DNA from: an uncultured Candidatus Saccharibacteria bacterium
GTDB lineage: Bacteria; Patescibacteriota; Minisyncoccia; Phycocordibacterales; SBAW01
Direction of reading: 5' to 3'
Length of the DNA stretch: 54,387 bases
Assembly (NCBI GenBank): GCA_964349675.1
Contig: CAYGHD010000004.1
Coordinates: 1 to 54,387 of the forward strand
Both the position numbers and the translations under genes were made by a program. A model generated the notes under the pieces. The model was not told the DNA's origin, searched no databases, and saw only the letters and a program-made list of their open reading frames with translations. Below, in pieces: positions 452 through 43,433 of the stretch. Every line of letters begins with the position of its first letter. Position 1 is the first letter of the stretch.

Positions 452-1141
452 CTAACGACGATTCTTCATCTCTTCGCGTGTGCGCTCAAGGAAGCGCGCT
501 GCCGCCTCTTGACCACCCAGCCCAAACGAAAGACCGAAGGCAAGTGCAATAGCAACTACCACACCAGTAAAGAGCGTCTGAAGTACACCTTGCGCTATCT
601 GCAACTGCTCCATAGCAGCCAAGATTGCAAAAATCCAAATTGACCAGCGTGCGATTGTTCCTGCAAAACCAGAGGCACCAATACCTGCAGCACGCGCCAT
701 ACCCGTCACCACGCCATATGCAATTTCTGCAATAACTGCTGCGACGAGAATGATCAAGACTGCGATAATCACGTTAGGCAAGAAGCCGATGACTACTTGT
801 TGCAGGAAGAAAGTTACCTGCCCCAACCCAAGTGCTTGCAGTGATGCAATCAAGAATGCGAGGATGATAAACCATTTTACCAACGCACCTACAAATGCCC
901 CCGCATCGAGTTTATATCCAGCGCGAGACACTACTGCTTCAAACCCCGCAGTGCGGAGCGCGTGGTCAACCTTAAGCGCCTTGACCGCCTCAGTAATCAC
1001 CCAGCCCAACCACACAGCGATAACCCAACCGACGATAAAAATAATTATCGCGATCACCAAACTCGGAAGGAAGTTAACGACATTCCACAGCAGATTTAAA
1101 AATGACTGCTGTAGTACAAAACCCCATTGCTGAACGATCAT
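452..1141 (-). CDS. Multi-pass membrane protein, conserved TM-helix-repeat / small mechanosensitive-channel-like
   Basis: 229-aa ORF with several hydrophobic helices separated by short charged loops and a C-terminal charged tail (RFLERTREEMKNRR). The functional family is assigned by general resemblance only. Confidence 0.8.
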   Translation of the reverse strand: MIVQQWGFVLQQSFLNLLWNVVNFLPSLVIAIIIFIVGWVIAVWLGWVITEAVKALKVDHALRTAGFEAVVSRAGYKLDAGAFVGALVKWFIILAFLIASLQALGLGQVTFFLQQVVIGFLPNVIIAVLIILVAAVIAEIAYGVVTGMARAAGIGASGFAGTIARWSIWIFAILAAMEQLQIAQGVLQTLFTGVVVAIALAFGLSFGLGGQEAAARFLERTREEMKNRR

Positions 1142-12560: not shown

Positions 12561-15500
12561 TTAGAAGTTGACCGAACGAGTACCAAGGGTAATCGGCAAG
12601 GTCTTCACAAGGTAGTCATCTGTCCAGTCAGACGTAGACTCGCTGTGAACGGTGCTGATCGATGAGCGATCTGTCCAGCCGAACGATGGAGTTGAAGCCA
12701 CTGTATCTGCTGCGACACCGGTTGCTGTGCCTGTGGTGATCGACGTAGAAGGGTTTGCGATGCTGACGCTAACCGAGTTTGCACCCGATGCGATGCCGCC
12801 AACCGTTCCGCGAAGCTCGTAGGTTCGTGACGAACCTGCGGTTACCTGCTGTTCGCTGTCTGCAACGAAGGTAAGGTTACCGCTAGTTGCACCAGAGAGG
12901 GAGTCACCACCGGGAATTGCACCGGTAGTTGTACCGAATACACCCGCAACTGATACTGCTGAGCCGCTCGTAATGTCCCAGAGCTTAATGGTCGAAGTTG
13001 CGCCGAGCGTAATTGCTGCGGTTTTGTTGACGGTGAAAGAAATTTTCTTCCAGCCAATATCACCTGAATTATCAGCTGACACTTTTACGCGACCAAGCAC
13101 CTGGTCAGAACCTGCTTGCAGCGTTGTGCTGTCGAGCGCAACTGCTGAAAGGGTTGCAATAGACTTGCGGACATACAGAGTACCTTTGCCGCTGGTTGCA
13201 GCTGAGTTTAGGTCAGATGCGCTGAGCGAGGTGTCTGCCGTGCCTGAAGAGTCTGTTGCGTTGAAGCCTTCACCTGCATCCAAGAGTACCGAGATAGCTG
13301 CACCAGTTGATGCGCCAGACGCGATAGTTGGGATACTGACGTAGACATCGAGGTCGCGGTCAGTGTTTTCTGGGATGTAGAAGGTAAGACCGGTGAAGGT
13401 AGACGTTGCGTGGGTCTGGCCTGCTCCTGTAGAGAGCGCCACTGCCTGTGTCGCGGTCTGCTCAGCACCGTTTATGTCTTTGTATTTCAGCATGACGCTT
13501 GATACAGAAGTTGCTGCGTTTGCAGGGATTTTAACAGCGACTTTGTCTACTGTGTATCCAGAGTACTGTGTCGTAAAGCGGAACGAACCAACTTTAACTG
13601 ACGTTGCACCTGCAACTACGTTTGCAGCATCTGGAGTAGAACCAGTGTTGACAGCTGCGGTAAGCACTGCGCTACCGATGGTGATGGTCTGCAGGGTTGC
13701 TGCAGTACCAACGCTCACTGAGTTACCAGTGATAGATGCGGTACCGGTTGTGTTTGTCGTAACTGTTGTTGCTGGAATTGCACCAGCTGAAGCATCAGTC
13801 TTCACATTTGCGTACACATCAATGGTCTTTGTACCAGACGCTGGAATGTTAATGCTTACAGAAAACGCGTTGGTTGTACCAACTGTCGACTTTGCTGTAC
13901 CTATTACGGCATTACCGTTTGTAGGATCTTTAAGCACGAGGTCTGAGATGAGTGAACTCACAGCTGACCCGAAGCCAATTTCGATTGTATTGACGTTCAC
14001 TCCTTCGGTAGAACCGCCAGAGAGTACGAACGAACCGATCTTAGCGTTTTGTGAGCCAGCAATGATGGTCTGGTTACCATAGCCTGAAGCCTTTGTCGCA
14101 GTGAGCGAAGCAGAAGCAACGGTGATGGTGTTACCAGAGACAGTACCGGTAGGGACGTTCACGCTTGAGAGCGAGATCTGACCCTGACCGTTCTGAGAAC
14201 CTGCAGTCAATGAAACAGCTACTGTTTCAGTGTTTGAGAGGTTTGTTGAAGTTGAAGTCTTCGCATCTGCGTAGATGTCAACAGTTGCGACAGTGCCAGC
14301 CTTGAGGATCATTGATGAACCGAATGTGAAGTTCACATCAGTTGCCTCAACGAGGTCCTTTGTAGAGCCGATCTGCACACCATTGAGAAATACTTTACCG
14401 TTGTCGAGACCACCGTTATGCACAGAGGTGTTGACGTTAACGTTCAGACTCTCAACTTTTACATCTTCACCGTTCGCAAGGAACTTGAAGGATGCCCACT
14501 TAACATTTGAAGCGCCAACTGACACGTTTTGCGTTGGAGAGTCCGACGCGCGGGTGATTGAAGGAGCTGATGTTGAGATAGAGTTGATTGTTGCTGAAGT
14601 TGCGGTGCGAGGTGAGAAGGTTGTACCGGCTGCAGTTGGGAGCACTGGCTGGTTAAGGTCAGTGTCTACCATGATTGCATCAGATGGGTAGCGCAGCGAC
14701 AAGCTGAAAGTGCGTGATGCACCGCCAACTACGTCTGCAAGTACTTTCACCACACGACCGCCAGTCTCAATACGAACTGGAGAAGCTGAGAGGTCGAAGG
14801 TGACTATGCTATTTGCGTCAACTGTTGCAACTGCTGAGCCAACCTGCACGCCGTCTACATAGAGGCGGAAGTTGCGGACATCACCAGTTTGGATAGAACC
14901 GATGTTGCGGAGTGCGAATGACTTCATAGTCACTGCGCGCGTACCGACAGTGATGTTGTTCTGCCAAACAGTATAGTCAGCTTGTGGGTCAACGGTGCTT
15001 ACAGAAGGAAGCGTTGATGTGTTGAAGTCAACTGTCGCAAGCGTTGCGGCAGATACTGACTGCAAACCGCCGTTGATTGGGAAGGACACAGAAGAGTCAA
15101 GTGCTCCTGATGCGCCAACTGAAACCAACTGAACGCCGATCTGCTGACCAGAGGTTGAACCTGCAATGTCAGAGCGTACAGACACAGTGTATGTGCTGCC
15201 AGCTGGGACAGTGAAGAGACCTACTGGGTTGCTGTAGTTGAATGCCGAGTTGCTGACGCCAGCTGAGTCGGTCAAACGAACTGCACCATTGTAGATGTAC
15301 ACGTTCGTCATTGTTGAGTCGTTAGAAACACCAATGCGCTTGAACGCGAGGTTAGTAACTACAACTGACGCAGATGTTGGGTTAGCAAAAGTGAACTTTG
15401 CGAGCTCACCTGCTGCCTGACCCTGCACGAGCGAAACGTTTACTGGTGAGTCAGATGCGAGCATGACTTTGAGGCCATTGCCCGTAACTGGAGTACCTGG

Positions 15501-16028
15501 AACGTTTGGATTAGTCGTAGTGGTACCGCACATGCTGTTAAGCTTTGCGCGAGTCAATGGACCAACGTAGCCAGAAGTTGGAGAAATTCCGTACTTAGCC
15601 TGGAATTTAACTACTGCTGCTTTTGTTGCTGGACCAAAGTACATGGTCTCCGCACCTGGAGAACCAGCACCCGTTGCTGCAACCATGGTGCTTGAATCTT
15701 TGTTCAAGAACTGCTGGAGCATTTTAACTTCTGCATTGCTTGAACCTACCTGGAGGTTGGTTACAAACATTGCTGTGCATGAACCGCCAGTGGTACCACC
15801 TGTAGGTGTACCTGGAGTTGCTTGACCGTTGAGCGCTGCGGTGACGTTGTTAAGCGTCGCCTGGTCAGCACCAAAGGCTTGAAGCAGACCAACAATTTGT
15901 TTGATCTGATCCTGTGTGAGGCCTGCAGCTTTTGCTGGTCCTGCGATTACTCCGAACAAAAGTCCGAGAGCAAGAACAGAGCCGGCTGCGACTGCGATGA
16001 GCCGAGTTGAACTCTGAGTAATAGTCAT
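12561..16028 (-). CDS. Large cell-surface protein: signal anchor + peptidoglycan-binding (PG_binding_1-like) domain + long Thr/Ser/Ala/Val/Gly-rich beta-repeat region
   Basis: The ORF 12561..16193 is trimmed to M56 (MTITQSSTRLIAVAAGSVLALGLLFGVIAGPAKA). The PG-binding-like motif is VKMLQQFLN...GPATKAAVVKFQAKYGISPTSGYVGPLTRAKL. The remaining roughly 950 aa are Ig-like/low-complexity beta sequence. Confidence 0.85.
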   Translation of the reverse strand: MTITQSSTRLIAVAAGSVLALGLLFGVIAGPAKAAGLTQDQIKQIVGLLQAFGADQATLNNVTAALNGQATPGTPTGGTTGGSCTAMFVTNLQVGSSNAEVKMLQQFLNKDSSTMVAATGAGSPGAETMYFGPATKAAVVKFQAKYGISPTSGYVGPLTRAKLNSMCGTTTTNPNVPGTPVTGNGLKVMLASDSPVNVSLVQGQAAGELAKFTFANPTSASVVVTNLAFKRIGVSNDSTMTNVYIYNGAVRLTDSAGVSNSAFNYSNPVGLFTVPAGSTYTVSVRSDIAGSTSGQQIGVQLVSVGASGALDSSVSFPINGGLQSVSAATLATVDFNTSTLPSVSTVDPQADYTVWQNNITVGTRAVTMKSFALRNIGSIQTGDVRNFRLYVDGVQVGSAVATVDANSIVTFDLSASPVRIETGGRVVKVLADVVGGASRTFSLSLRYPSDAIMVDTDLNQPVLPTAAGTTFSPRTATSATINSISTSAPSITRASDSPTQNVSVGASNVKWASFKFLANGEDVKVESLNVNVNTSVHNGGLDNGKVFLNGVQIGSTKDLVEATDVNFTFGSSMILKAGTVATVDIYADAKTSTSTNLSNTETVAVSLTAGSQNGQGQISLSSVNVPTGTVSGNTITVASASLTATKASGYGNQTIIAGSQNAKIGSFVLSGGSTEGVNVNTIEIGFGSAVSSLISDLVLKDPTNGNAVIGTAKSTVGTTNAFSVSINIPASGTKTIDVYANVKTDASAGAIPATTVTTNTTGTASITGNSVSVGTAATLQTITIGSAVLTAAVNTGSTPDAANVVAGATSVKVGSFRFTTQYSGYTVDKVAVKIPANAATSVSSVMLKYKDINGAEQTATQAVALSTGAGQTHATSTFTGLTFYIPENTDRDLDVYVSIPTIASGASTGAAISVLLDAGEGFNATDSSGTADTSLSASDLNSAATSGKGTLYVRKSIATLSAVALDSTTLQAGSDQVLGRVKVSADNSGDIGWKKISFTVNKTAAITLGATSTIKLWDITSGSAVSVAGVFGTTTGAIPGGDSLSGATSGNLTFVADSEQQVTAGSSRTYELRGTVGGIASGANSVSVSIANPSTSITTGTATGVAADTVASTPSFGWTDRSSISTVHSESTSDWTDDYLVKTLPITLGTRSVNF

Positions 16029-16384
16029 ATGTAAGTTCGAACAGTTAATAATTACTTGTAATCTACGAATAATGAGAAACCTAACAGTTTCTACCCAGCT
16101 TTTATAATGATATGGACACTCCACAACTCGTATTCTCTTTTTTAAAAAAGAGGAGTTGCGGGGAACATATCTCATAATCGCTCTTGGTAGCAAGAATGGA
16201 TTGGGTCACGCGGAATGAGCTGCCAGTAACGGGACAAGGAATTCGGGATGTATGAAATTGTCAACGATCTTTCAAGAGCAGTTTTGTACCAACCGTACTA
16301 GATGAGTGAACATTTCACGCATCTAGTAAAACAGTGCCGACATGCAGTCGCTCTGCCTAGTATAGGTTGCTTTACACAAGAACT

Positions 16385-29589: not shown

Positions 29590-31569
29590 TTATTGTTTTG
29601 GCACTACTTGCCCCGTCCCTCCTTGAAAATTTGCATCCCCAACCAACAATGTCGTCGGCCCTACCCCGCGCACCTGCACGGGCACTTGTGCAAATCTATC
29701 TTGTCCAGAAAACTGCGGGTCGCCAGTGAGCATTGGTGCCTGGCCAATTTGCGATGTGCTTGGCGTAAGCGCCACTTGGAACGTCGCCGTCCGTGCCTGA
29801 GCAGTATACCCAACCCCGGCTTTAAGGTCGCCAGCCGTCCATGTCACGGTGCGGCTCGAAGCATTGTATTGCACGCCACTATTTGGCTGAGCTGCCACAA
29901 AACGCACATACGTCGGCAATACTGCAGACACCGTCGCATTGGCAATAGTATTTGAAGAATTGCTTAACGTCCAGACGATATTGTAGGTGGTCGTTTGCTC
30001 AGCAACTGGCGGCACTGGCCCGGTATTTACAAATGCCCCACTGGAGTAAAGTGCTTGCGCGGTCAGTCCCACAATCGACGAGACTTGTACTTCGGCCATT
30101 GCAGCTGAGGCAACTTTTTCTGGCACCTTGTCTTGACCTTGGCGAACACCCGCAACACTGACATTAAAGTTGAGCGTCGGGTTTGTATATGCCACCCCAC
30201 CAGCCCCAGGCGGCGTAGTAGTAAAACTAAAACGCAGCACCCCGGATCCTCCCGGCGGAACATCCGCCAAGGTAGAGAGTTGGTCTTTAGTCCACACAAT
30301 CACATCATCTTTAGATTGGTAAAAACCGTCTGGAGACTGTATAGAGCTTCGGTCAAGCGTAGCGCCTGCCATCGACAATCGTATTTCCACATCAGACACC
30401 GAATCTGGTAAATTATTCTGCCAAGAAATACTCCCTTGTGTTGTGGCACCCGCGGGCACCGCAACGGTCTTGCCCGACTGGCCCGCAATTGCAATTGTTG
30501 CGCTGATAAATGGGCGTTCAACCGTGAGTGTTTGCGGCACCGTCAAAAACGGTACTTTTATTTGCGTGTTTGTTTGATCTCCATCTGACCCCGCTAAAAA
30601 GCGGAATACCCGTTGGTCACCATCTTGACCTTCTATTTTGCCGATAATTTTGATTACCTTGCTCGTGCCTGGCTCCATTTTGCCCAACCGCCAAATAGTG
30701 TCCCCCGCTTCTGCGGCGGGCATCGCACTTAAAATTGAAAATCCAAACGGATATTGACCCTGAATGACCACGTCTTCAACCGGCGTTGTGGCATTGCTCT
30801 GGATTGTAAGCGTTATCGGAAACTCTTGCCCCGCGACAGCATTGGTTGGTGAGTCTATAGACACGGACACAGGTGATGATCCGACCAAAAAATCAACTTC
30901 AGTCTCTTTTTCAAAAATCGCGTTTGAGCCGGGAATCGTGTACTCAAGGCGCGCGCGCACTTTTTGCGGCATCCCCTCCTGCCCGTAAAATACCGCTGCT
31001 GCAGTGCGTTTTATCTGTTGCCCCGAGTCTATAGCACCGACCGTTTGCCGCTCGCGCGCGAGCACTTTTGTTTGGTCTGCCGGGTCTCTGGTCCCCTCTG
31101 GGTAGTCGATGACCAAATCAACAAGCTGCAGCTGGGTGGGATTGCGATTGTTGATGAGGATTTGCAGCGTTGTCTCTTTACCACCATCAATAAGCGATGG
31201 CGCAATGATTTGCATGTCGATATTTTGTGGAGAAATCGTGTTGGAGTCGAAGAAGATAACGTATGCAGCAAAACTTCCCGCAACGAGAAAGAACGCGACC
31301 GACGCGAGAAAAAACTTTACTGCAAAAGAGGTCTTTTTTTTACGTGCCATAGGAACAACTTTGGTAATATCCCCACCATGAAATGCTGCTGACTGCCCTG
31401 CCGCTGGAGCTACGGGAGGTGGAGGTGGTGCACCCTCCCACGCAACCGGCACATGCGACGCCTCATGGGTAAGCGGTGTGCGCTCCTCTGGATGTACCTC
31501 GGGCTCTTCTGTCCTGGAATAGAGCTTTTCCTTTAAACCCTCGACGGAGTTGTTTTTCTTCCCTGCCAT
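29590..31569 (-). CDS. Large membrane-anchored extracellular protein of unknown function (beta-rich repeats)
   Basis: The ORF 29590..31602 is trimmed to M12 (MAGKKNN...). It has a Pro-rich cytoplasmic N-terminus and one TM helix (FAVKFFLASVAFFLVAGSFAAYVIFF). About 540 aa are extracellular. It follows the pilin gene after a 40-nt gap. Confidence 0.75.
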   Translation of the reverse strand: MAGKKNNSVEGLKEKLYSRTEEPEVHPEERTPLTHEASHVPVAWEGAPPPPPVAPAAGQSAAFHGGDITKVVPMARKKKTSFAVKFFLASVAFFLVAGSFAAYVIFFDSNTISPQNIDMQIIAPSLIDGGKETTLQILINNRNPTQLQLVDLVIDYPEGTRDPADQTKVLARERQTVGAIDSGQQIKRTAAAVFYGQEGMPQKVRARLEYTIPGSNAIFEKETEVDFLVGSSPVSVSIDSPTNAVAGQEFPITLTIQSNATTPVEDVVIQGQYPFGFSILSAMPAAEAGDTIWRLGKMEPGTSKVIKIIGKIEGQDGDQRVFRFLAGSDGDQTNTQIKVPFLTVPQTLTVERPFISATIAIAGQSGKTVAVPAGATTQGSISWQNNLPDSVSDVEIRLSMAGATLDRSSIQSPDGFYQSKDDVIVWTKDQLSTLADVPPGGSGVLRFSFTTTPPGAGGVAYTNPTLNFNVSVAGVRQGQDKVPEKVASAAMAEVQVSSIVGLTAQALYSSGAFVNTGPVPPVAEQTTTYNIVWTLSNSSNTIANATVSAVLPTYVRFVAAQPNSGVQYNASSRTVTWTAGDLKAGVGYTAQARTATFQVALTPSTSQIGQAPMLTGDPQFSGQDRFAQVPVQVRGVGPTTLLVGDANFQGGTGQVVPKQ

Positions 31570-31609
31570 ACCGCAAAGTATACCATTGTGCCGCTCTTGC
31601 AAAATGACA

Positions 31610-33326: not shown

Positions 33327-34817
33327 TTATTCTCCGACCCATATTTGAACGCTGCTCGTCCCCTGCCCAGTCGCGTACAAGCGGCCGCGCTCGTAGTCAA
33401 ACCCACCAACCATAGCGCCTAACACTGAGTGCAGCGACTCTGTTGAAAAAGCGCTGCCGTAGTTCCATATCTGAAGCTCTTTGGTAACTTTTGAGGTAAG
33501 GAGGAAAACACGCGAGTGCATCGCTATGAGCCCCATAACTCCGGTGTTGATATCTTGAGATGCAAGTTCATGTAGCCCCGCAGTTGGGTTGGTGGCGGAA
33601 AATAGGTATACATCTGGACCATTTGGAGTAGAAGCTCTTCCAACATAGAGTGCATCGCCGAGCATGCAGATACTTTGTGCATTTTGACTCCCAGGAAGGT
33701 CGACTGTTGCGGCAAGCACCTCACTCACAGAGCCTTGTTCAGGAACATCCGTAACATCGAATACGCGCACCTCGCTGTGGAGTTGACTGGTCGCAGTATA
33801 CAAAAAACGTTTCCGCACTCCCTGTATAATCTGCTCTTGAACCGCAAGCGCATTTATTGTGGCGCCCACTTCAAAGCCAGATCCAAGCTCTGTTGGAAAA
33901 TTTGGATCGGACACGTCAAAGACGTGAAGCTCGGGACCTGCTGTATATTTGGTCGTCATGTACACCCGCGGCGCATAGTATACAAGCCGGTGACCCATCG
34001 GCTCCGAGCCCGTAGTACTCACGTTGCGCAGCGAGCGACGCGCTATGGTGACGGGGTTGTGTATATCAGTAACATCAATGACATGCAACTGTTCTTGCGA
34101 AGCGTTTAGTGCGGCATATACATAGGTCCTCATGTCCCCGTCAGTGTCGCGCTGCTGCACTACATCTAAAAACACAATGTGTTCGGGGAGTGAAAAATTA
34201 TTTTCAAATGATACAAAAGAGAGCGCATCTCCAGCGTGTACGGCTCGCGTATTGCTGATAAACAAATATGGGGCTACAGAGCCTCCCATGTATATCACCC
34301 CATCAAGTACATCTATCGCGGTTGGTTTGCCCAAGGGTAATGTCCCTTGTGCTAAAACCGCTGGTCGGGACCAATCGCCAAGATCCGCAGCAGTCTCACA
34401 ATCCCCTCCTAAAGCTAGAAGTTTTTGAACATCATACACTGTTGTCCTGATAGACAGATTTCGTGGACGCAAAGCACCCTCAACCCAGGCAACGCTACTT
34501 GTTGCAGACACAGCACAAGGCGCATCAGCGTGTAATTCCATTCGTCGCGTATAGGTTGTCGACGCGATTGTCATTACTTCAGAAGCATCTTCTATGCTAG
34601 CGACTCGAGCGACCCTCATTGTATACAGAGCGTGCGCGGACAGCTGCAGCGCTTGGTTTTTGGCGCGAGCGCCATATGAGACAAGCATTCCTCCAAATAC
34701 TATTTCTGCAGCGATGGAAATGCTCATAACTAACAGGGCAAAAGCAATGAGTACCTCAATGGTGCTGAACCCTTGTGCACGCGCTTGCAAACTACCAGAG
34801 AATAGTCCCTTCTTCAT
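33327..34817 (-). CDS. Large pseudopilin with LVIVD-repeat beta-propeller-like domain
   Basis: 496 aa with the prepilin N-terminus AQGFSTIEVLIAFALLVMSISIAA. Repeated motifs are LHVIDVTDIHNPV, LHVFDVSDPNFPT, VRVFDVTDVPEQG and LQIWNYG. Confidence 0.8.
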   Translation of the reverse strand: MKKGLFSGSLQARAQGFSTIEVLIAFALLVMSISIAAEIVFGGMLVSYGARAKNQALQLSAHALYTMRVARVASIEDASEVMTIASTTYTRRMELHADAPCAVSATSSVAWVEGALRPRNLSIRTTVYDVQKLLALGGDCETAADLGDWSRPAVLAQGTLPLGKPTAIDVLDGVIYMGGSVAPYLFISNTRAVHAGDALSFVSFENNFSLPEHIVFLDVVQQRDTDGDMRTYVYAALNASQEQLHVIDVTDIHNPVTIARRSLRNVSTTGSEPMGHRLVYYAPRVYMTTKYTAGPELHVFDVSDPNFPTELGSGFEVGATINALAVQEQIIQGVRKRFLYTATSQLHSEVRVFDVTDVPEQGSVSEVLAATVDLPGSQNAQSICMLGDALYVGRASTPNGPDVYLFSATNPTAGLHELASQDINTGVMGLIAMHSRVFLLTSKVTKELQIWNYGSAFSTESLHSVLGAMVGGFDYERGRLYATGQGTSSVQIWVGE

Positions 34818-37663: not shown

Positions 37664-38242
37664 TTAGAGACCGGTAGCACCAAGCGACTCGTTGATAGCG
37701 CGGATGAGCACTGTGCGCGAGCGCGCTGCCGCTGCAGCCAGCTCCATTGAAAAAAAATCTTGTTCTAAAAAAGGACGTATCTCAGCAGTCTGCGGCAAGT
37801 AGCCTAAGTGAGACAGAATGCGCAAAACCAATACGCATTCAATATGTTCGGCTTCTTCATCACTACTTTTTGCTAAATACTGTAGCCCCTGAGAAACAGT
37901 CGCATATAATTCCGGCACCGACTCTTCCCCATGGATGAGGCGCGTAAGCAACCGCGCAACGCGCCCCACCGCACGCCGGCGCAGTGGCGAGTCGGCACTA
38001 TGAACACGCGAAAGATCTTGCACCCCAACGAGCTTCCATTCAAATACGCCGCGCACTAAAGAAAACCTGCCAGACGTGAGCGGCTCTAACCCATATCGTA
38101 ATTTTGATTTTGCCAAGCGCGCACTCCGCGCAGAAGCACGTATCAACCCCAAATCATCGCTTAAAAGTGATACGAGCGTGTTTGCTTCACCAACCCCCCG
38201 CTTGCCAAGCACAATGGCGTCTATCACAACAATTTTATGCAT
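37664..38242 (-). CDS. recO: DNA repair protein RecO
   Basis: The ORF 37664..38389 is trimmed to M50 (MHKIVVIDAIVLGKRGVGEANTLVSLLSDDLGLIRASARSAR...). It has a RecO-like OB N-terminus and overlaps the ileS stop by 8 nt. Confidence 0.75.
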   Translation of the reverse strand: MHKIVVIDAIVLGKRGVGEANTLVSLLSDDLGLIRASARSARLAKSKLRYGLEPLTSGRFSLVRGVFEWKLVGVQDLSRVHSADSPLRRRAVGRVARLLTRLIHGEESVPELYATVSQGLQYLAKSSDEEAEHIECVLVLRILSHLGYLPQTAEIRPFLEQDFFSMELAAAAARSRTVLIRAINESLGATGL

Positions 38243-41200
38243 GGATATCCAACCCTCCAAGACCAGTTGCGGCAATAATCTCATTCTGGAACTTGCGTGC
38301 AACCACAGCTTCCTCTGGAGAGACAGTGAGCGTATGTGTTGGTCTGTCAGCAATTTGTAGACCTGATTTTTTGCGCCACTCCTGCACACGGCGGATTAAG
38401 TCTCTCAGCACCCCCTCTTCTTTCAGCGCTGGAGTCATGGCTGTGTCGAGCCACACAACATCGACCGTTTCATCTTGAAGCACTTCTTTGACATTCAATT
38501 CATCAACGATAAGTGCTTGAAGCCCCGGGTCTTTTGGCAGTGTCTTTGCTTTGAGTGTTTGGAGCGGCTGCCGCACTTTTATCCCCGCCTTTTCACGCAA
38601 CTCCAACCCGCGCGAACAAATTGTACGCACTTGCTCCATGTCTTGAAGCAACACTTGGTCTACAACGGGAGCTTTTGGCCAAACGGAAAGGTGTACACTC
38701 TCTGGATCTGCTTCAGCACGCAAGCGGCGGTACAGGTCATCTGCAAAAAATGGCATCGTGGGCGCCATCACCTGCGCCACCGTACAGAGCACTTGCCGCA
38801 GAGTCTGAAGCGCAGCGTCTTTATCTTTGCCATCTGTTTTAAACCGATCACGAGAACGGCGTATATACCACGTAGACAAATCATCGATAAAATTTGCGAG
38901 CGGACGTGTTGCCTCATCGAGCTCGTATTTTTCAAACCCTTGTGTCGTGTCACGCACCAACTCGCCCATTCGAGACATGATCCATGCATCTAGCGGGTGT
39001 GTTGTATGTTTTGCGCTCAATGCTTTGGCCTGCGCAACAGGCGCTCCTACAGCGGACTCTGCAGGCGCATAGAGGTCATAAAAACTCCTCACGTTGTCTA
39101 GCCGCATTAAGAGTTTTTTTGCAACTTCCTCCACCCCGCGCGCAGAGAAACGCACATCCTCGCCACGAATCACTGGAGAAGAGAGTAAATAGTAACGCAG
39201 CGCATCGACTCCAAATTGGTCAACCAGCTCCATAGGATCGGGATAATTTTTTAGACGCTTACTCATCTTTTGTCCGTCTTGAGCGAGTAATTGCCCATTC
39301 GTTATTACCGCCTTGTATGGGCTTTTCCCAAAAAGTGCCGTACCCAAAACAATCAACGAGTAAAACCATCCGCGCGTCTGATCGATACCTTCAGCGATAA
39401 AATCGGCTGGGTACCCTTTTGGCAGTAGGCCGAGAAACCGCTTTGGATCAAAAATGCCTTTACGAAATGGGTAGTGATTTGACGCAAATGGCATCGACCC
39501 TGACTCAAACCAACAGTCGAATACGTCGCTCACACGCTTCCATTCTCCACTCAATGGGTCACCCAGCGTGATTGCGTCTATATACGGACGATGCAGGTCG
39601 AGCTCAAAATTTTCATTGTGCGGATACGGCGTGAAAGACAGTTTTTGCCATTGCCCTGTTTTAAACAAGTTTCCACCATGTGGCTGAGCTACCAAGTCTG
39701 GCATAAGCGTGCGGGAGGTAATTTCGGTGAGCAGCCATGCGCCGACCCCGTGCGTCACAAGCAACACCCGCTTGCCTGAATAACGCTTGTCGATATCAAA
39801 AATAAAATCAGCCACGCGGTTGCGCACTTGCGCGTAGGTCTCTCCGCCAACAGCGGCTGTATTAAACTTGTCTGACAAGGTAGCGAACAGTGCCTCCCAT
39901 TCGGGTAGCGGTGCGCCGTTTTTATCTCCAAAATGCACCTCAACCAAACGCGTATCAGTCATGATGACTGAGTGCGGCAAACCCAACTCATCGCACACCA
40001 GACGCGCTGTTTCTTGCGCACGTAGCAATGGTGACGCAACCACCATATCTATTTTTTGCGATTTAAGCTTGCGCGCAGAAGCACGCACCTCGGCTTGACC
40101 TTTGTGGGTAAGATGGTTCTCGACGGTATCATCTGAATTAGCAAAACCTTCTACATTGCTTCGCGCCTCCCCATGCCGCATAACGATATACTCGTTCCCT
40201 GACCGACGAGACATTGCCAACAAATCCTCAACGGACCCGACTACTTTTATCTCTTTTGTTTTACTGTGTCTCCAAACAGGGATAGGTGCCCCCCAGTAGC
40301 GGCTACGAGAAATTGCCCAATCTGGCGCATTTTGCAGCAGATTGTTAAAACGACCAGAACCTACACGATCTGGAACCCAATGTACTTTTGTATTTTGTGC
40401 GAGCAGTTTGCTTTTTATCGATGAAACTTTTACAAACCATGAGTTTGCTGCCCAATTAAGCAGCGGGGTGTCGCAACGCCAACAATGTGGGTAGGAATGC
40501 CTGATCTTTTCCTGTCGGAAAAGCCTCCCCCGCTGCTCTAAATTTTCAGCAATTTTTGCGTCAGTTTCCATATGCCGACCTTTTGGCTTTACCGGCAAAT
40601 GAGCGAAGTCCGCAACCGTTGCAACAAATTTACCGTCATCAGTGACATGATGAATGAGTGGTATCTTCTCTTTCTGTGCAAGCTCCAAATCTTCAGCACC
40701 GTACGCTGGGGCTAGGTGGACAATACCAGTACCGTCTTGCAATGTTACATACGGCGCAGCGTACACGCGCCATGCATGTGTCTTGTGCTTGTGTATTGTG
40801 TCGACAAAATAGTCAAACGGTGGAGTGTAGCGCTTGCCTACTAAATCTTTACCAAGAATTTCGCCGTATATTTTTAAATCTTCGCCCAACACTTTTTGCG
40901 CCAAGTCTTTTGCTACAACCACAAAACCACCGTCCGTGCGCACTTTAACGTATGTAGCTTGTGCGTTTACAGCAACCGCAACATTGCCAGGAAGTGTCCA
41001 CGGCGTCGTGGTCCAAATCAGCAATGAGGTCTCAGGCTCATCGACAAGCGGCATCTTTACGGTCACGGCAATATCGTCGATATCTTGGTACCCTTGGGCT
41101 ACCTCAAAATTTGAAAGCGTTGTGCCACAGCGCGGACACAGATGCATCGCTTTAAAGCCCTCGTACACTAACCCTTTATCGTACAGACTTTTAAATGCCC

Positions 41201-41735
41201 ACCACACACTCTCTGTATATGAGGAGTCCATGGTCTTATAGTCTTGCTCCATGTCTGCCCAACGACCCATACGGGGGATAATCCGCTTCCAGTCGGCGAC
41301 ATCCTTCATGATGCTTGTGCGGGCAGCAGCGTTGAACTTTTCGATACCGTATTCTTCAATATCACGCTTGGTTTTAAACCCAAGCTCTTTTTCTACCAAG
41401 TTCTCAACGGGGAGTCCGTGACAGTCCCACCCCCATTGCCTGGCAACACGGTAACCCTGCATCGTGCGGTAACGCGGGATCGCGTCTTTGAGCGCGCTTT
41501 GTAATATATGTCCGTAGTGCGGCAAACCGTTTGCAAACGGCGGCCCATCATAAAAAACATACTCTCCTTTTGGAGCCTTCTTTTGCAGTGTTTTTTCAAA
41601 AATATTGTTAGCCTGCCAAAAAGCGAGTATTGCTTCTTCGCGCTCAGCGAGCGGGCTCTTTGAACCCACTTCTGGCCCACGATGCTGCTCTTCCCCACCC
41701 TGCTTTGGTGAATCCATATCTAGAGAATATAGCAC
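38235..41735 (-). CDS. ileS: Isoleucine--tRNA ligase (type 2/eukaryote-like) carrying an internal histidine-phosphatase-like insertion
   Basis: 1166 aa with the HIGH motif PHYGH, CP1 editing-domain motifs (TTTPWTLPGN) and DWAISRSRYWGAPIPVW. The KMSKS motif is KMSKRL. The insertion at residues about 514-708 carries RHGE, SPLLRAQETA and VTHG. Confidence 0.95.
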   Translation of the reverse strand: MLYSLDMDSPKQGGEEQHRGPEVGSKSPLAEREEAILAFWQANNIFEKTLQKKAPKGEYVFYDGPPFANGLPHYGHILQSALKDAIPRYRTMQGYRVARQWGWDCHGLPVENLVEKELGFKTKRDIEEYGIEKFNAAARTSIMKDVADWKRIIPRMGRWADMEQDYKTMDSSYTESVWWAFKSLYDKGLVYEGFKAMHLCPRCGTTLSNFEVAQGYQDIDDIAVTVKMPLVDEPETSLLIWTTTPWTLPGNVAVAVNAQATYVKVRTDGGFVVVAKDLAQKVLGEDLKIYGEILGKDLVGKRYTPPFDYFVDTIHKHKTHAWRVYAAPYVTLQDGTGIVHLAPAYGAEDLELAQKEKIPLIHHVTDDGKFVATVADFAHLPVKPKGRHMETDAKIAENLEQRGRLFRQEKIRHSYPHCWRCDTPLLNWAANSWFVKVSSIKSKLLAQNTKVHWVPDRVGSGRFNNLLQNAPDWAISRSRYWGAPIPVWRHSKTKEIKVVGSVEDLLAMSRRSGNEYIVMRHGEARSNVEGFANSDDTVENHLTHKGQAEVRASARKLKSQKIDMVVASPLLRAQETARLVCDELGLPHSVIMTDTRLVEVHFGDKNGAPLPEWEALFATLSDKFNTAAVGGETYAQVRNRVADFIFDIDKRYSGKRVLLVTHGVGAWLLTEITSRTLMPDLVAQPHGGNLFKTGQWQKLSFTPYPHNENFELDLHRPYIDAITLGDPLSGEWKRVSDVFDCWFESGSMPFASNHYPFRKGIFDPKRFLGLLPKGYPADFIAEGIDQTRGWFYSLIVLGTALFGKSPYKAVITNGQLLAQDGQKMSKRLKNYPDPMELVDQFGVDALRYYLLSSPVIRGEDVRFSARGVEEVAKKLLMRLDNVRSFYDLYAPAESAVGAPVAQAKALSAKHTTHPLDAWIMSRMGELVRDTTQGFEKYELDEATRPLANFIDDLSTWYIRRSRDRFKTDGKDKDAALQTLRQVLCTVAQVMAPTMPFFADDLYRRLRAEADPESVHLSVWPKAPVVDQVLLQDMEQVRTICSRGLELREKAGIKVRQPLQTLKAKTLPKDPGLQALIVDELNVKEVLQDETVDVVWLDTAMTPALKEEGVLRDLIRRVQEWRKKSGLQIADRPTHTLTVSPEEAVVARKFQNEIIAATGLGGLDIHA

Positions 41736-41747
41736 TTTTTGAGCTTT

Positions 41748-43433
41748 TTACATCTCTTTTGGTACAGGGATGCCAAGCAGCTGCAGTCCTTTGTTGAGAG
41801 TCTGCTCAACCGCCTCTGCAAGCAACAGCGCGTACGATGGATAGTCGCCATCTATGACGCGCACCTGCGCATACCAAGAGTTAAATGCGGCAGAAAGCTC
41901 TGTGAGGTATGTAGTAACATAGTGCGGCTCAAGTTCGTGCGCCGCGCGTGCCGCCACTGACGGGTAGTGTATGAGCAAACGGTCAAGCGTGAGTGTATGC
42001 AAAAATTCTGTAATATCTTGCACACTCTCTACCTTGTCACTCACGCCAGCTGTACGCGCTTTTTCTATCAAAGACTGAGCGCGTGTATGTGCGTACTGCA
42101 AGTACGGCCCCGAATCACCCTCGAGAGAGAGTGATTTTTCTGCGTCAAACGCGATATCCTTACCGCTCCCCTGTTTAAGCACCGTGTATTTAATTGCCCC
42201 CACGGCCACTTGTTCGGCAACTTTTTCTGTATCAGGCAAGTCTCGGCCTTGCATTTTTTCTTTTGCTACGTCTTTAAGGTCCATTAAGAGCGACTCACCC
42301 GTTATGACGTTGCCTTTGCGCGATGACATCTTACCCTGCGCAAACCGCATCATGCCGTGTGTTATGTGGGTGGTTTTTTCTGCAATATCGTGCAGTTTGG
42401 GGATTTCTTTCGCAGCAGCGAGCATCACCTTAAAATACTCACTCTGCTCATGGGCCGTGACTGTAGTAGATTGATCCAAGGCGGCTGTTTCTTTTTTAAG
42501 CTGGAGGAGCCCTAAGTCTTTTGCCTCGTAGGTTGGCAGACCTTGCGAGTTTACAAACACGCGCGTATGCAACCCAACCTTCTCGCCCTTGTACACCACG
42601 GCGCCATCACTTTTTTCAAACACGCTCGGCGTATTGTCCGCCACCAACTGCAGCCCCTTTGCACTTGTCTCGCTTTCAAAAAAATAATGCTCAAACTTTG
42701 TACCCAACATGCGGTAGAGCTCTTCAAAATGCTCGAGCGACACCTCTCGGCCAATTGTATATAAAGCATTTACCTGCGGGTCTGTTTTTTCGTATACCGC
42801 TTTATTTATCTCGTCGATGCGTTTTTTATATTCTGCGCTTTCTTCATATCGCGATGCGCCGAGCACGTACGCCTCACCTAACTCTTTACTATTTGGATGC
42901 GTGATACCCAACTCCATCAAACCAAAAATACCTTTAGCCACATGTGGGCCCACATCTCCTTGGTAGTTAGCGCGGATCACCTTTGCACCTGCGTTCTCGA
43001 GCGTGTGCGCCACAGACTCACCAATAACATTGGTCATCAAATGGCCTATGTGGAACTCTTTAAACGGATTTGGATCCGTATACTCGACCATTACCGTTTT
43101 ATCTTTATACAAGTTATTCTGCCCCCACGCCTCGTCTGTAGCGGCTTTTTGCACCTCCTGTAGAATAGCTTCGCGCGATAAACGGAAATTAATAAACCCC
43201 GGGCCAGCAATTTCGATTTTTTCTACTCCCTCTATTTTCTCATCAAGTTTTGCCTTCAGCTTTTCTGCCACCTCGCGAGGGTTTTTACCAAGCTGCTTAG
43301 CCGCCGCCATTGCTGCGTTGGTAGCATAGTCGCCGTGCGCCAAGTCTCCGGGGCGCTCCACCACAAAAGCCACATCCGGCGCGCCCAGCGCCTCTAGTGC
43401 TTTTTGGATTGCGGCATATATCGCTTCACTCAT
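41748..43433 (-). CDS. argS: Arginine--tRNA ligase
   Basis: 561 aa with the N-terminal Arg_tRNA_synt_N domain, the HIGH-like motif EFHIGHLM and MSSRKGNVI (the KMSK equivalent). The C-terminal anticodon-binding domain ends PVPKEM. Confidence 0.95.
   Translation of the reverse strand: MSEAIYAAIQKALEALGAPDVAFVVERPGDLAHGDYATNAAMAAAKQLGKNPREVAEKLKAKLDEKIEGVEKIEIAGPGFINFRLSREAILQEVQKAATDEAWGQNNLYKDKTVMVEYTDPNPFKEFHIGHLMTNVIGESVAHTLENAGAKVIRANYQGDVGPHVAKGIFGLMELGITHPNSKELGEAYVLGASRYEESAEYKKRIDEINKAVYEKTDPQVNALYTIGREVSLEHFEELYRMLGTKFEHYFFESETSAKGLQLVADNTPSVFEKSDGAVVYKGEKVGLHTRVFVNSQGLPTYEAKDLGLLQLKKETAALDQSTTVTAHEQSEYFKVMLAAAKEIPKLHDIAEKTTHITHGMMRFAQGKMSSRKGNVITGESLLMDLKDVAKEKMQGRDLPDTEKVAEQVAVGAIKYTVLKQGSGKDIAFDAEKSLSLEGDSGPYLQYAHTRAQSLIEKARTAGVSDKVESVQDITEFLHTLTLDRLLIHYPSVAARAAHELEPHYVTTYLTELSAAFNSWYAQVRVIDGDYPSYALLLAEAVEQTLNKGLQLLGIPVPKEM

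What the first reader, a model, noticed from the sequence alone, without database searches (positions are those of the whole stretch)
39612..40196. Histidine-phosphatase (PGAM-like) domain inserted in-frame inside isoleucyl-tRNA synthetase
ileS (38235..41735, minus strand) encodes 1166 aa. The insertion lies between the core motif DWAISRSRYWGAPIPVW (residues about 472-488) and the HRPYID...DVFDCWFESGS segment (residues about 715-746). As I recall them, type-2 IleRS enzymes have only a few tens of residues at this point. Here there is a block of about 195 aa (residues about 514-708) carrying all three hallmark motifs of histidine phosphatase superfamily branch 1. These are IVMRHGEARSN (RHG-E-x3-N), VVASPLLRAQETA and VLLVTHGVGAW. 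The reading frame is continuous, and the HIGH (PHYGH), editing-domain and KMSKS (KMSKR) motifs are intact. It therefore looks like a genuine domain insertion into an essential enzyme rather than a pseudogene or a fusion junction. I know of no characterised aminoacyl-tRNA synthetase with an embedded phosphatase/mutase-fold domain. Possible roles are purely speculative: acting on a phosphorylated nucleotide or tRNA end, hydrolysing an inhibitor, or regulation.
Basis: partly seen in the sequence, partly recalled or inferred. Interest (0 to 1): 0.75.

Follow-up and report, generated by a model that had tools for sequence, protein, structure and literature searches.

The report
Phosphatase domain embedded inside isoleucyl-tRNA synthetase
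An essential translation enzyme (isoleucyl-tRNA synthetase) of a Patescibacteria bacterium carries a complete, apparently active phosphatase enzyme spliced into one of its surface loops; related bacteria encode the same phosphatase as a separate gene right next to the synthetase gene, which points to an unrecognised working partnership between the two enzymes.

Summary
ORF 38235..41735(-) encodes a 1166-aa type-2 IleRS (TIGR00392, 889 bits). Residues 512-711 are a complete histidine-phosphatase domain (Pfam His_Phos_1, E 7.7e-30). In solved IleRS structures only 3-7 residues occupy this point, between the two helices of the CP3 subdomain. The catalytic residues R520, H521, R572, E599 and H662 are invariant in 68/68 sequences. 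The insert evolves about as slowly as the anticodon-binding domain. AlphaFold models it confidently as a PhoE-like phosphatase, not a mutase.

New findings: the closest free-standing relatives (187-195 aa) align end to end with the insert. In 5/5 cases examined they lie 1-9 nt upstream of an ileS that lacks the insert, in the same argS-ileS-recO neighbourhood. Insert and stand-alone gene are complementary. Related domains also sit at three other IleRS sites, in up to three copies, and rarely in ValRS (four copies), always with catalytic residues kept.

Best reading: a tethered accessory phosphomonoesterase functionally coupled to IleRS, substrate unknown. No paper describing it was found.

The parts
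38235..41735 (-). ileS: 1166-aa type-2 isoleucyl-tRNA synthetase with embedded phosphatase domain. The GTG start at 41735 is uncertain; an ATG lies at 41717, and residues 1-23 are disordered in the model.
   Evidence: (TIGR00392 889 bits)
40203..41735 (-). IleRS N-terminal part (residues 1-511): first half of the Rossmann fold, CP1 editing domain, CP2, the WAISR linker and the first half of CP3
41508..41522 (-). HIGH signature (PHYGH, residues 72-76)
40203..40286 (-). CP3 first half (PIPVWRHSKTKEIKVVGSVEDLLAMSRR, residues 484-511): beta hairpin plus helix alpha1. The zinc-knuckle cysteines present in 27/68 relatives are absent here.
39603..40202 (-). The insert, residues 512-711 (200 aa): a complete histidine-phosphatase domain plus a junction linker, replacing a 3-7 residue turn of ordinary IleRS
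39735..40187 (-). Pfam His_Phos_1 core match, residues 517-667
   Evidence: E 7.7e-30; pLDDT 91; PhoE 1EBB TM 0.77, rmsd 2.4 A
40173..40178 (-). R520-H521 of the RHG motif (H521 is the predicted phospho-accepting nucleophile)
   Evidence: invariant 68/68
40020..40022 (-). R572, second phosphate-binding arginine (SPLLRA)
   Evidence: invariant 68/68
39939..39941 (-). E599, predicted general acid/base
   Evidence: invariant 68/68
39750..39752 (-). H662, second catalytic histidine (VTHG)
   Evidence: invariant 68/68
39603..39734 (-). Insert C-terminal part, residues 668-711: the last helices and strand of the phosphatase fold, then the family-specific junction motif P705-H706-N707-x-N-(Y/F)-E711
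   Evidence: 64-68/68 conserved for P705, H706, N707 and E711; absent from stand-alone homologues
38235..39602 (-). IleRS C-terminal part (residues 712-1166 plus stop): CP3 helix alpha2 and hairpin, second half of the Rossmann fold, anticodon-binding domain and type-2 C-terminal domain
39255..39269 (-). KMSKS signature (KMSKR, residues 823-827)
41748..43433 (-). argS (arginyl-tRNA synthetase), directly upstream. In sister lineages the stand-alone phosphatase gene lies between argS and ileS.
37664..38242 (-). recO, directly downstream. The probable ATG at 38240-38242 lies 2 nt after the ileS stop codon. Part of the conserved argS-ileS-recO block.

Best explanation
The gene encodes a functional type-2 isoleucyl-tRNA synthetase. 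A complete small histidine phosphatase of the PhoE/GpgP/PspA/CobC-like subgroup is inserted in frame between the two helices of its CP3 subdomain. CP3 is an exposed peripheral module that starts right after the WAISR linker lining the tRNA-CCA pocket. SHOWN: the insert equals one entire stand-alone phosphatase ORF plus short linkers. It is inherited across a large Parcubacteria/Paceibacteria clade, keeps every catalytic residue, and evolves under constraint similar to other IleRS domains. In sister lineages the same phosphatase family is a separate gene 1-9 nt upstream of an ileS that lacks the insert, in the same argS-ileS-recO block, and the two arrangements are complementary. INFERRED: the domain is an active phosphomonoesterase working through a phospho-histidine (H521) intermediate. 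It acts as an accessory enzyme of IleRS that became covalently docked to it. The conserved, ordered junction motif suggests rigid docking. Its substrate is most likely a phosphomonoester linked to the synthetase's nucleotide or tRNA chemistry, for example a 2'/3'-phosphorylated adenosine nucleotide or tRNA end, AMP, or a phosphorylated molecule that competes at the active site. The substrate is not identified. My confidence by step: real in-frame domain insertion into a working IleRS, about 0.97; catalytically active phosphatase, about 0.8; functionally coupled to IleRS rather than hitch-hiking, about 0.6; a nucleotide or tRNA-end type substrate, about 0.3.
For: Identity. The best 80 all come from Patescibacteria-type or unclassified MAGs, and nearly all span both junctions. 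One search found 67 intact ORFs of 1100-1367 aa. Catalytic residues are invariant in 68/68 sequences and are kept in 20/20 domain copies at all sites, apart from one N-to-A change. Constraint: insert mean pairwise identity is 0.445, against 0.46 for the anticodon-binding domain and 0.50 for the editing domain. Rosetta-stone evidence: stand-alone homologues align end to end with the insert. In 5/5 cases they lie directly upstream of an ileS without the insert, downstream of argS and with recO following wherever the contig extends that far. Only 1/80 insert-bearing loci has even a weak extra His_Phos ORF nearby. Recurrent fusion: related domains occur at three further IleRS sites and in ValRS, in different lineages and genomic contexts. 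The junction motif PHNxN(Y/F)E is nearly invariant and confidently modelled. CP3 is an exposed docking surface in human IARS1 (PMC13439101). The CP2-CP3 linker lines the tRNA-CCA/reveromycin pocket (PMC7955072).
Against: No activity or substrate has been measured. The invariant residues are the generic superfamily ones and say nothing about specificity. Scores against every NCBIfam equivalog (CobC, PspA, dPGM, SixA) are below cutoff. Gene adjacency within one phylum could partly be synteny by descent. One insertion site (site D, in the anticodon-binding domain) is far from the aminoacylation site, which argues against a strict geometric requirement. Histidine phosphatases act on terminal phosphomonoesters, so Ile-AMP and adenylate-mimic inhibitors are not plausible substrates. 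Correlation between core and insert divergence is significant but weak (Mantel r 0.32).
Confidence: 0.6

Rival explanations
1. Hitch-hiking metabolic phosphatase. The domain is an ordinary broad-specificity housekeeping phosphatase (for example for phosphoserine, sugar phosphates or a cofactor precursor) with no mechanistic link to aminoacylation. IleRS serves only as a stable, constitutively expressed scaffold in a streamlined genome.
For: The closest solved relatives are broad or metabolic phosphatases: PhoE, Rv2419c, PspA and CobC. The domain occurs at several sites, including one far from the active site, and in multiple copies, which suits a geometry-independent role. No other His_Phos gene is present in the 54-kb window.
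Against: Fusion happened repeatedly and independently to the same partner type: IleRS at four sites, and ValRS. The stand-alone gene is tightly adjacent to ileS across two divergent IleRS subtypes. Both are hard to explain without functional coupling. The junction is conserved and ordered.
Confidence: 0.2
2. Regulatory module. The domain senses a phosphorylated metabolite, or acts as a protein (phospho-Ser/Thr/His) phosphatase like PGAM5 or SixA. It thereby switches IleRS activity or reverses an inhibitory phosphorylation of the synthetase.
For: Some branch-1 histidine phosphatases are protein phosphatases (established knowledge). There is a weak SixA match (TIGR00249, 37-41 bits). The domain appears rigidly docked next to the catalytic domain.
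Against: The SixA score is below its cutoff of 74.5. The structural neighbours are small-molecule phosphatases. No kinase partner is seen in the neighbourhood. Tandem copies are not expected for a simple switch.
Confidence: 0.1
3. Structural pseudo-enzyme. The domain has lost catalysis and serves as a docking or tRNA-binding platform.
For: CP3 is used as a protein-docking surface in human IARS1. A sub-lineage close to the window has a deletion of about 35 aa in the cap region of the insert.
Against: R520, H521, R572, E599 and H662 are invariant in 68/68 orthologues and in all 20 copies examined at every site. That pattern is what selection on catalysis predicts.
Confidence: 0.05
4. Genuine cofactor-dependent phosphoglycerate mutase supplying a glycolytic step.
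For: The superfamily includes dPGM. There are weak NCBIfam dPGM hits.
Against: dPGM models score far below cutoff (74-78 against 225; 36-41 against 316). The sequence after the catalytic Glu is EVHFG rather than the dPGM-type ERHYG (the dPGM motif is from memory). Foldseek fits small phosphatases at rmsd 2.4-3.2 A, but most dPGMs only at about 5-9 A.
Confidence: 0.03
5. Artefact: a chimeric assembly, a pseudogene, or an intein-like mobile insertion.
For: Some long-read metagenome contigs show the gene split into pieces (L001, L002, L092). The junction superficially ends in His-Asn.
Against: There are 67 independent intact ORFs. Composition is uniform across the insert. The IleRS motifs are conserved. 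There is no HINT or intein Pfam hit. The residue after HN is E, D, K, R or A in the tally, not C, S or T. The fold is an alpha/beta histidine phosphatase.
Confidence: 0.01

Closest known systems
PhoE/YhfR broad-specificity phosphatase of Geobacillus stearothermophilus (PDB 1EBB, 1H2E), with related small branch-1 histidine phosphatases (Rv2419c GpgP 4QIH, PspA 4IJ5, CobC 6NRU)
   Same: Same fold and size (about 190-210 aa) and the same catalytic set (RHG, Asn, second Arg, Glu, second His). These are the best sequence hits (E 3e-10) and structure hits (TM 0.74-0.77, rmsd 2.4-3.2 A).
   Different: Those are free-standing enzymes with known small-molecule substrates. This one is nested inside an aminoacyl-tRNA synthetase, shares only 22-27 % identity with them, and passes no equivalog cutoff.
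Type-2 isoleucyl-tRNA synthetase (IleRS2; Thermus 1ILE, Priestia 8C8V, yeast 8WND, Candida 6LDK)
   Same: Full domain set, HIGH/KMSKS signatures, editing motifs and type-2 C-terminal domain. TM normalised to the target is 0.81-0.91.
   Different: Ordinary IleRS2 has a turn of 3-7 residues between the CP3 helices, where this protein has a 200-aa enzyme domain.
Stand-alone histidine phosphatase encoded between argS and ileS in other Paceibacteria (e.g. MBI3631270.1, Candidatus Staskawiczbacteria)
   Same: The closest free-standing relatives of the insert (33-35 % identity). They align end to end with it and lie in the same argS-ileS-recO locus.
   Different: A separate polypeptide lacking the PHNxN(Y/F)E junction motif. 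Its neighbouring IleRS has an intact short CP3 with zinc-knuckle cysteines.
Bifunctional RNase H / acid phosphatase (Rv2228c type, NCBIfam NF005567)
   Same: A precedent for a CobC-like histidine phosphatase fused to a nucleic-acid enzyme. It is the joint best NCBIfam match of the insert (78 bits).
   Different: That is an end-to-end fusion, not a nested insertion, and the partner is RNase HI. The score is far below the cutoff of 326.
IleRS with an N-acetyltransferase domain (NCBIfam NF040702 'ileS_w_GNAT'), and other synthetases with accessory catalytic domains (ProRS INS, ThrRS N2 editing domains; from memory)
   Same: The concept of an extra enzymatic domain built into a synthetase. One relative (P0162) carries both His_Phos and GNAT domains.
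   Different: The known accessory domains are hydrolytic editing or acetyltransferase modules. No synthetase with a phosphatase domain was found in the literature searched.

Membership tests
Histidine phosphatase superfamily, branch 1 (Pfam PF00300) | Profile match above the curated gathering score | tested here: met
   104.4 bits against 21.7, E 7.7e-30, residues 517-667
Histidine phosphatase superfamily, branch 1 (Pfam PF00300) | RHG motif with the nucleophilic histidine at the start of the domain | tested here: met
   R520-H521-G522. R and H are invariant in 68/68 orthologues and in 20/20 copies.
Histidine phosphatase superfamily, branch 1 (Pfam PF00300) | Second Arg, second His and an acidic proton donor completing the phosphate pocket | tested here: met
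   R572, H662 and E599 invariant 68/68; N527 in 65/68
Histidine phosphatase superfamily, branch 1 (Pfam PF00300) | Alpha/beta/alpha fold superposable on solved members | tested here: met
   AF2 pLDDT 91, pTM 0.89. Foldseek: PhoE 1EBB TM 0.77, rmsd 2.4 A.
Histidine phosphatase superfamily, branch 1 (Pfam PF00300) | Phosphomonoesterase or mutase activity through a phospho-histidine intermediate | not testable with these tools
   Needs an enzyme assay
Cofactor-dependent phosphoglycerate mutase (dPGM) | Equivalog-level profile score | tested here: not met
   NF038349 74-78 bits against 225; NF002339 36-41 against 316; TIGR01258 35 against 81.7
Cofactor-dependent phosphoglycerate mutase (dPGM) | Closest structural similarity is to mutases | tested here: not met
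   dPGM/BPGM hits have rmsd mostly about 5-9 A, against 2.4-3.2 A for the small phosphatases
Alpha-ribazole phosphatase CobC / phosphoserine phosphatase PspA / SixA | Equivalog-level profile score | tested here: not met
   TIGR03162 69-73 against 162.9; NF045917 48-53 against 350; TIGR00249 38-41 against 74.5
Isoleucyl-tRNA synthetase (TIGR00392) | Equivalog profile score above cutoff | tested here: met
   888.9 bits against 621.4, in two stretches flanking the insert
Isoleucyl-tRNA synthetase (TIGR00392) | Class I HIGH and KMSKS signatures and CP1 editing motifs present | tested here: met
   PHYGH 72-76, KMSKR 823-827, WTTTPWT 241-247, GTGIVH 335-340
Isoleucyl-tRNA synthetase (TIGR00392) | Type-2 (eukaryote-like) architecture | tested here: met
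   Best folds are Priestia IleRS2 8C8V, yeast 8WND and Thermus 1ILE; type-1 enzymes score worse. DUF5915 C-terminal domain is present.
Isoleucyl-tRNA synthetase (TIGR00392) | Aminoacylation of tRNA-Ile | not testable with these tools
   Inferred from intact motifs and from being the only ileS seen in the window and related loci
IleRS with GNAT domain (NF040702) / MupA, MupB resistance IleRS | Exception-model score above cutoff | tested here: not met
   336 against 1999; 655 and 700 against 1900
Intein | HINT fold, an N-terminal Cys/Ser nucleophile, and C-terminal His-Asn followed by Cys/Ser/Thr | tested here: not met
   No Hint/intein Pfam hit. The residue after H706-N707 is E, D, K, R or A in the tally. 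The fold is a histidine phosphatase.

The most novel reading that the evidence does not exclude
The embedded phosphatase is a third catalytic site of the synthetase, alongside the synthetic and editing sites, with a dedicated role in aminoacylation quality or substrate repair. Examples would be removing a blocking 2'/3'-phosphate (or the terminal phosphate of a pyrophosphate) from the tRNA-Ile CCA end, or clearing a phosphorylated nucleotide that poisons the active site. That would define a new class of synthetase accessory activity, one that in sister lineages is supplied in trans by the operon-encoded phosphatase.
Probability: 0.25. Interest if true: 0.9.

Novelty: new variant of a known kind. 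Interest (0 to 1): 0.72.

Why it matters
Aminoacyl-tRNA synthetases are among the best-studied enzymes. Their known built-in accessory activities are hydrolytic editing domains. Here a conserved and apparently active phosphatase is coupled to IleRS in three ways: nested in the protein across a large clade, at several independent sites, or as a tightly linked operon partner. That implies a phosphate-removing step is relevant to isoleucyl-tRNA synthesis in a major, poorly understood bacterial radiation. It gives a directly testable system: a wild-type enzyme, point mutants, a clean deletion whose boundaries are known, and a natural two-protein version. It also shows that the CP3 loop and a few other surface loops of class Ia synthetases tolerate whole-enzyme insertions, which is useful for protein engineering. 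Finally, automated annotation currently labels fragments of these genes as 'histidine phosphatase family protein', and that should be corrected.

Tried and rejected
- **Locus scan pattern.** The first insert alignment (A2, 13 sequences) was too divergent for the scan to derive search patterns. A 5-sequence subset (A3) worked.
- **Fragment-only hits.** The search for homologous proteins returned only fragments of 526 aa or less. Full-length evidence therefore came from genome loci and the representative library.
- **Pfam tally.** A Pfam scan of all 145 representatives exceeded the residue limit. I replaced it with a local BLAST/HMM tally.
- **Geometry.** The orientation of the phosphatase active site relative to the Ile-AMP site and the tRNA CCA end could not be measured.
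- **Co-divergence.** The core-versus-insert test gave a significant but weak correlation (Mantel r 0.32, 0/999). I do not lean on it.
- **Defence-system link.** No PADLOC hit for the insert or a stand-alone homologue.
- **Intein.** Rejected.
- **dPGM, CobC, PspA, SixA membership.** Rejected on curated cutoffs.
- **Adenylate-mimic detoxification.** I considered this because a GNAT domain co-occurs in P0162. I judged it chemically unlikely, because histidine phosphatases need a terminal phosphomonoester (established knowledge).
- **ValRS context.** Locus L092 is frameshifted and uninformative.
- **Fragmented loci.** L001 and L002 carry the gene in pieces, probably long-read errors.
- **Odd taxon names.** Hits named Methylomirabilis and Rectinemataceae are on contigs of about 1.3-1.4 kb and are probably mis-binned.
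- **tRNA genes.** None in the window.
- **Literature.** Seven searches found no description of this architecture. One search failed on syntax.
Full report
**1.
The minus-strand ORF 38235..41735 encodes 1166 aa. NCBIfam identifies it as isoleucine-tRNA ligase (TIGR00392, 888.9 bits, cutoff 621.4), matched in two stretches that stop at about residue 516 and resume at about residue 731. Pfam places His_Phos_1 at residues 517-667 (E 7.7e-30; 104 bits against 21.7). The HIGH (PHYGH 72-76), editing (WTTTPWT 241-247, GTGIVH 335-340), WAISR (472-477) and KMSKS (KMSKR 823-827) motifs are all present. G+C content is uniform across the region.

**2. Exact anatomy.**
Aligned to solved IleRS structures, window residue 511 corresponds to Candida IleRS (6LDK) residue 501, and window residue 712 to residue 505. 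In yeast IleRS (7D5C, 8WND) the gap is 7 residues. The insert is therefore residues 512-711 (window 39603..40202) and replaces a tight turn.

Published domain boundaries put this point inside the CP3 subdomain: Candida CP3 is residues 473-534 with beta-beta-alpha-alpha topology, and yeast CP3 is 459-526 (PMC7191050, PMC7955072). The insert lies between the two CP3 helices. The CP2-CP3 linker just upstream (ARDWNVSRNRYWG in yeast, APDWAISRSRYWG here) lines the tRNA-CCA/reveromycin pocket. In human IARS1, CP3 is an exposed protein-docking surface (PMC13439101). Thermus CP3 carries a zinc motif. Of 68 orthologues, 27 keep CxxC...CxC around the insert; the window protein does not.

A query with residues 512-711 removed aligns contiguously (99-100 % coverage, 46-56 % identity) to about 2000 ordinary IleRS fragments from eukaryotes, Myxococcota, Chlamydiae, Clostridia and at least one Patescibacteria MAG. 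None of the 120 listed has PF00300.

**3. Not an artefact, and not rare.**
- The best 80 loci nearly all span both junctions.
- Their titles are Adler-, Kaiser-, Nomura-, Lloyd-, Campbell-, Vogel-, Taylor- and Wolfebacteria, Paceibacterota, Parcubacteria and Patescibacteria, or unclassified. Twenty-five carry a bulk 'uncultured Saccharibacteria' title that I regard as unreliable.
- In 67 of the 80 loci the gene is a single intact ORF of 1100-1367 aa that aligns to window residues about 22-1164.
- The closest relatives (62-68 % identity over the whole protein) are mostly Adlerbacteria MAGs.
- An exhaustive phmmer search of the insert against 1.84 billion cluster representatives gave 682 hits at E <= 1e-10. 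Of the 145 newly retrieved proteins among the best 150, 97 have IleRS-like flanks.

**4. The domain looks catalytically alive.**
- R520, H521, R572, E599 and H662 are invariant in 68/68 sequences. N527 and E632 are each conserved in 65/68.
- Mean pairwise identity of the insert is 0.445. That compares with 0.46 for the anticodon-binding domain, 0.50 for the editing domain and 0.53 for the second Rossmann half.
- The full-length AlphaFold model has mean pLDDT 89 and pTM 0.83, with the insert blocks mostly at 88-97 and a dip to 71-80 around residues 670-690. The core superposes on Thermus IleRS 1ILE (TM 0.91 normalised to the target, rmsd 3.1 A) and Priestia IleRS2 8C8V.
- The insert alone is modelled at pLDDT 91 and pTM 0.89. 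Its best structural matches are small phosphatases: PhoE 1EBB/1H2E, Rv2419c 4QIH, mycobacterial hydrolases 6S2Q, PspA 4IJ5 and CobC 6NRU. These give TM 0.65-0.77 and, for PhoE, Rv2419c and PspA, rmsd 2.4-3.2 A.
- Phosphoglycerate mutases fit mostly at rmsd about 5-9 A.
- All NCBIfam equivalog models (dPGM, CobC, PspA, SixA) score below cutoff.
- The domain is therefore a branch-1 histidine phosphatase of the phosphatase subgroup, with unassigned specificity.

**5. The key new evidence: a Rosetta-stone relationship.**
Among the closest relatives without synthetase flanks is a family of 187-205-aa proteins that begin 'MKLNNKYYILRHG' and end 'GELRELN'. They align with the insert from S512/N514 to about residue 703. 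The insert is therefore one whole phosphatase ORF plus linkers of about 7 and about 12 residues.

For all five members examined, the gene lies 1-9 nt upstream of an ileS that lacks the insert. Those ileS genes are 931-991 aa where complete, with 8-18 residues at the CP3 site and intact zinc-knuckle cysteines. The phosphatase gene lies downstream of argS, and recO follows ileS wherever the contig extends that far. The window has the same argS-ileS-recO order with nothing between argS and ileS.

Among the 80 insert-bearing loci, ArgRS lies upstream on the same strand in 58 and RecO on the same strand in 59. Only one locus has an additional small His_Phos ORF, and that match is weak at 36 bits. 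The two arrangements are thus complementary. The adjacency holds next to two divergent IleRS subtypes (43-47 % and 32-36 % identity to the window enzyme). That argues for more than inherited gene order.

**6. Recurrent fusion.**
The same domain family occurs at other positions:
- Site B: the CP3 hairpin (P0208, P0214).
- Site C: between WFESG and DQTRGWF (P0138, P0208).
- Site D: inside the anticodon-binding domain (P0138, P0226, P0109).
- Up to three copies occur in one IleRS.
- Four copies occur in a ValRS (P0124; NF004349 411 bits).

P0138 has an uninterrupted CP3. It recurs as six 1419-aa proteins on contigs up to 1.06 Mb, and it lies in a different neighbourhood (purA, DAHP synthase, an SLH protein). 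It is therefore an independent event in another lineage. Copies within one protein are only 24-36 % identical. Yet all 20 copies examined keep the catalytic residues, apart from one N-to-A change. The ValRS form is rare (five hits).

**7. Interpretation.**
Shown: a real, ancient, clade-wide nested insertion of a complete phosphatase into a structurally normal IleRS2. Selection maintains its catalytic residues. Operon adjacency, complementary distribution and repeated independent fusion link this phosphatase family genomically to IleRS.

Inferred: it is an active phosphomonoesterase that serves IleRS as an accessory enzyme. In this lineage it is docked rigidly. The junction motif P705-H706-N707-x-N-(Y/F)-E711 is nearly invariant (64-68/68 for P705, H706, N707 and E711), is absent from the stand-alone proteins, and is confidently modelled.

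The substrate cannot be read from the sequence. Chemistry restricts it to a terminal phosphomonoester, or possibly a terminal anhydride or acyl-phosphate. I consider a nucleotide or tRNA-end species the most interesting candidate. I give it only about 0.3, because site D is far from the active site and multiple copies suggest that geometry is not always critical. The main rival is a mechanistically unrelated housekeeping phosphatase using IleRS as a scaffold (0.2). Regulatory, pseudo-enzyme, true-mutase and artefact explanations are less likely, as detailed under the rival explanations.

**8. Novelty.**
Seven full-text searches found no description of a synthetase with a histidine-phosphatase domain. 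They included a 2026 preprint on IleRS domain evolution, which mentions neither Patescibacteria nor a phosphatase. Sequence databases hold the proteins only under generic names such as 'histidine phosphatase family protein, partial' and 'class I tRNA ligase family protein'. Synthetases with accessory catalytic domains are a known kind, and NCBIfam even has an IleRS-with-GNAT model. I therefore class this as a new variant of a known kind, with a real chance that the underlying function is new.

Noticed in passing
P0162 (JGI metagenome protein, 1066 aa; not in the window): This IleRS relative carries three foreign domains. A REP-associated tyrosine transposase/IS200-like domain (NF047646, 81 bits; Pfam Y1_Tnp) lies at residues 326-472 (NCBIfam; Pfam 340-461), inside the editing-domain region. 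A His_Phos domain sits at the CP3 site. A GNAT acetyltransferase lies at residues 935-1063, after the WFESG motif.
   Followed up: partly
P0138 and its cluster P0266-P0270; P0208; P0214; P0226; P0233 (not in the window); locus L091: IleRS proteins with 2-3 histidine-phosphatase domains at sites other than, or in addition to, the window's site. P0138 has an uninterrupted CP3 and lies in a different gene neighbourhood (purA, DAHP synthase, SLH protein), on contigs up to 1.06 Mb. Its taxon was not identified.
   Followed up: partly
P0124 (ValRS fragment, 1161 aa), P0390-P0394: A valyl-tRNA synthetase with four histidine-phosphatase domains, all keeping the RHG motif. A handful of other ValRS fragments have one such domain.
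   Followed up: partly
L037, L068, P0001, P0024, P0031, P0032 (close relatives of the window protein): A sub-lineage has a deletion of about 35 aa inside the insert, between the catalytic-Glu strand and the GGE helix (the cap region). This gives an anchor-to-anchor length of 192 aa instead of about 227. The core catalytic residues are retained in L037 and L068, while P0001 appears to have Asp in place of E599.
   Followed up: partly
window 41700-41760 and 38230-38245: The ileS start is ambiguous: GTG at 41735 or ATG at 41717. The first 23 residues are disordered in the model, and relatives align from about residue 22. The recO ORF as listed overlaps the 3' end of ileS, but its probable ATG (38240-38242) lies 2 nt after the ileS stop, so argS-ileS-recO form a tight operon.
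   Followed up: yes
L083, L085, L088, L090 (stand-alone phosphatase loci): A short amino-acid-kinase-family gene (PF00696, about 109-229 aa) sits directly upstream of argS in these loci, preceded by an rplT-infC-smpB block. It is not present at the equivalent place in the window, where a DUF2914 protein and SHMT lie upstream of argS.
   Followed up: no
window 5500-8121(-), 33327-34817(-), 12561-16193(-), 29590-31602(-): Large ORFs of 873 and 496 aa have no Pfam match at E <= 1e-5. A 1210-aa ORF has only a peptidoglycan-binding domain, and a 670-aa ORF has only DUF11. These are probably lineage-specific surface proteins.
   Followed up: no
L002 (ENA contig_38825, 100.6 kb, last 10 kb): Three consecutive ORF fragments are 49-61 % identical to window IleRS residues 437-1108, including part of the insert. 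They lie next to TPR/BTAD regulator and methyltransferase genes at a contig end. This is either a noisy long-read assembly or a decaying gene copy.
   Followed up: no
P0023, P0031, P0499 (NCBI names): Fragments of insert-bearing IleRS, and of a ValRS, are labelled Candidatus Methylomirabilis or Rectinemataceae. They sit on contigs of about 1.2-1.4 kb, so these are probably binning contaminants rather than occurrences outside Patescibacteria.
   Followed up: no
window 484-511 of IleRS (40203-40286) compared with relatives: The CP3 zinc-knuckle cysteines (CxxC...CxC) are present in 27 of 68 insert-bearing orthologues and lost in the rest, including the window protein and all its close Adlerbacteria relatives. 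Some relatives carry extra low-complexity loops between the two N-terminal cysteines.
   Followed up: partly
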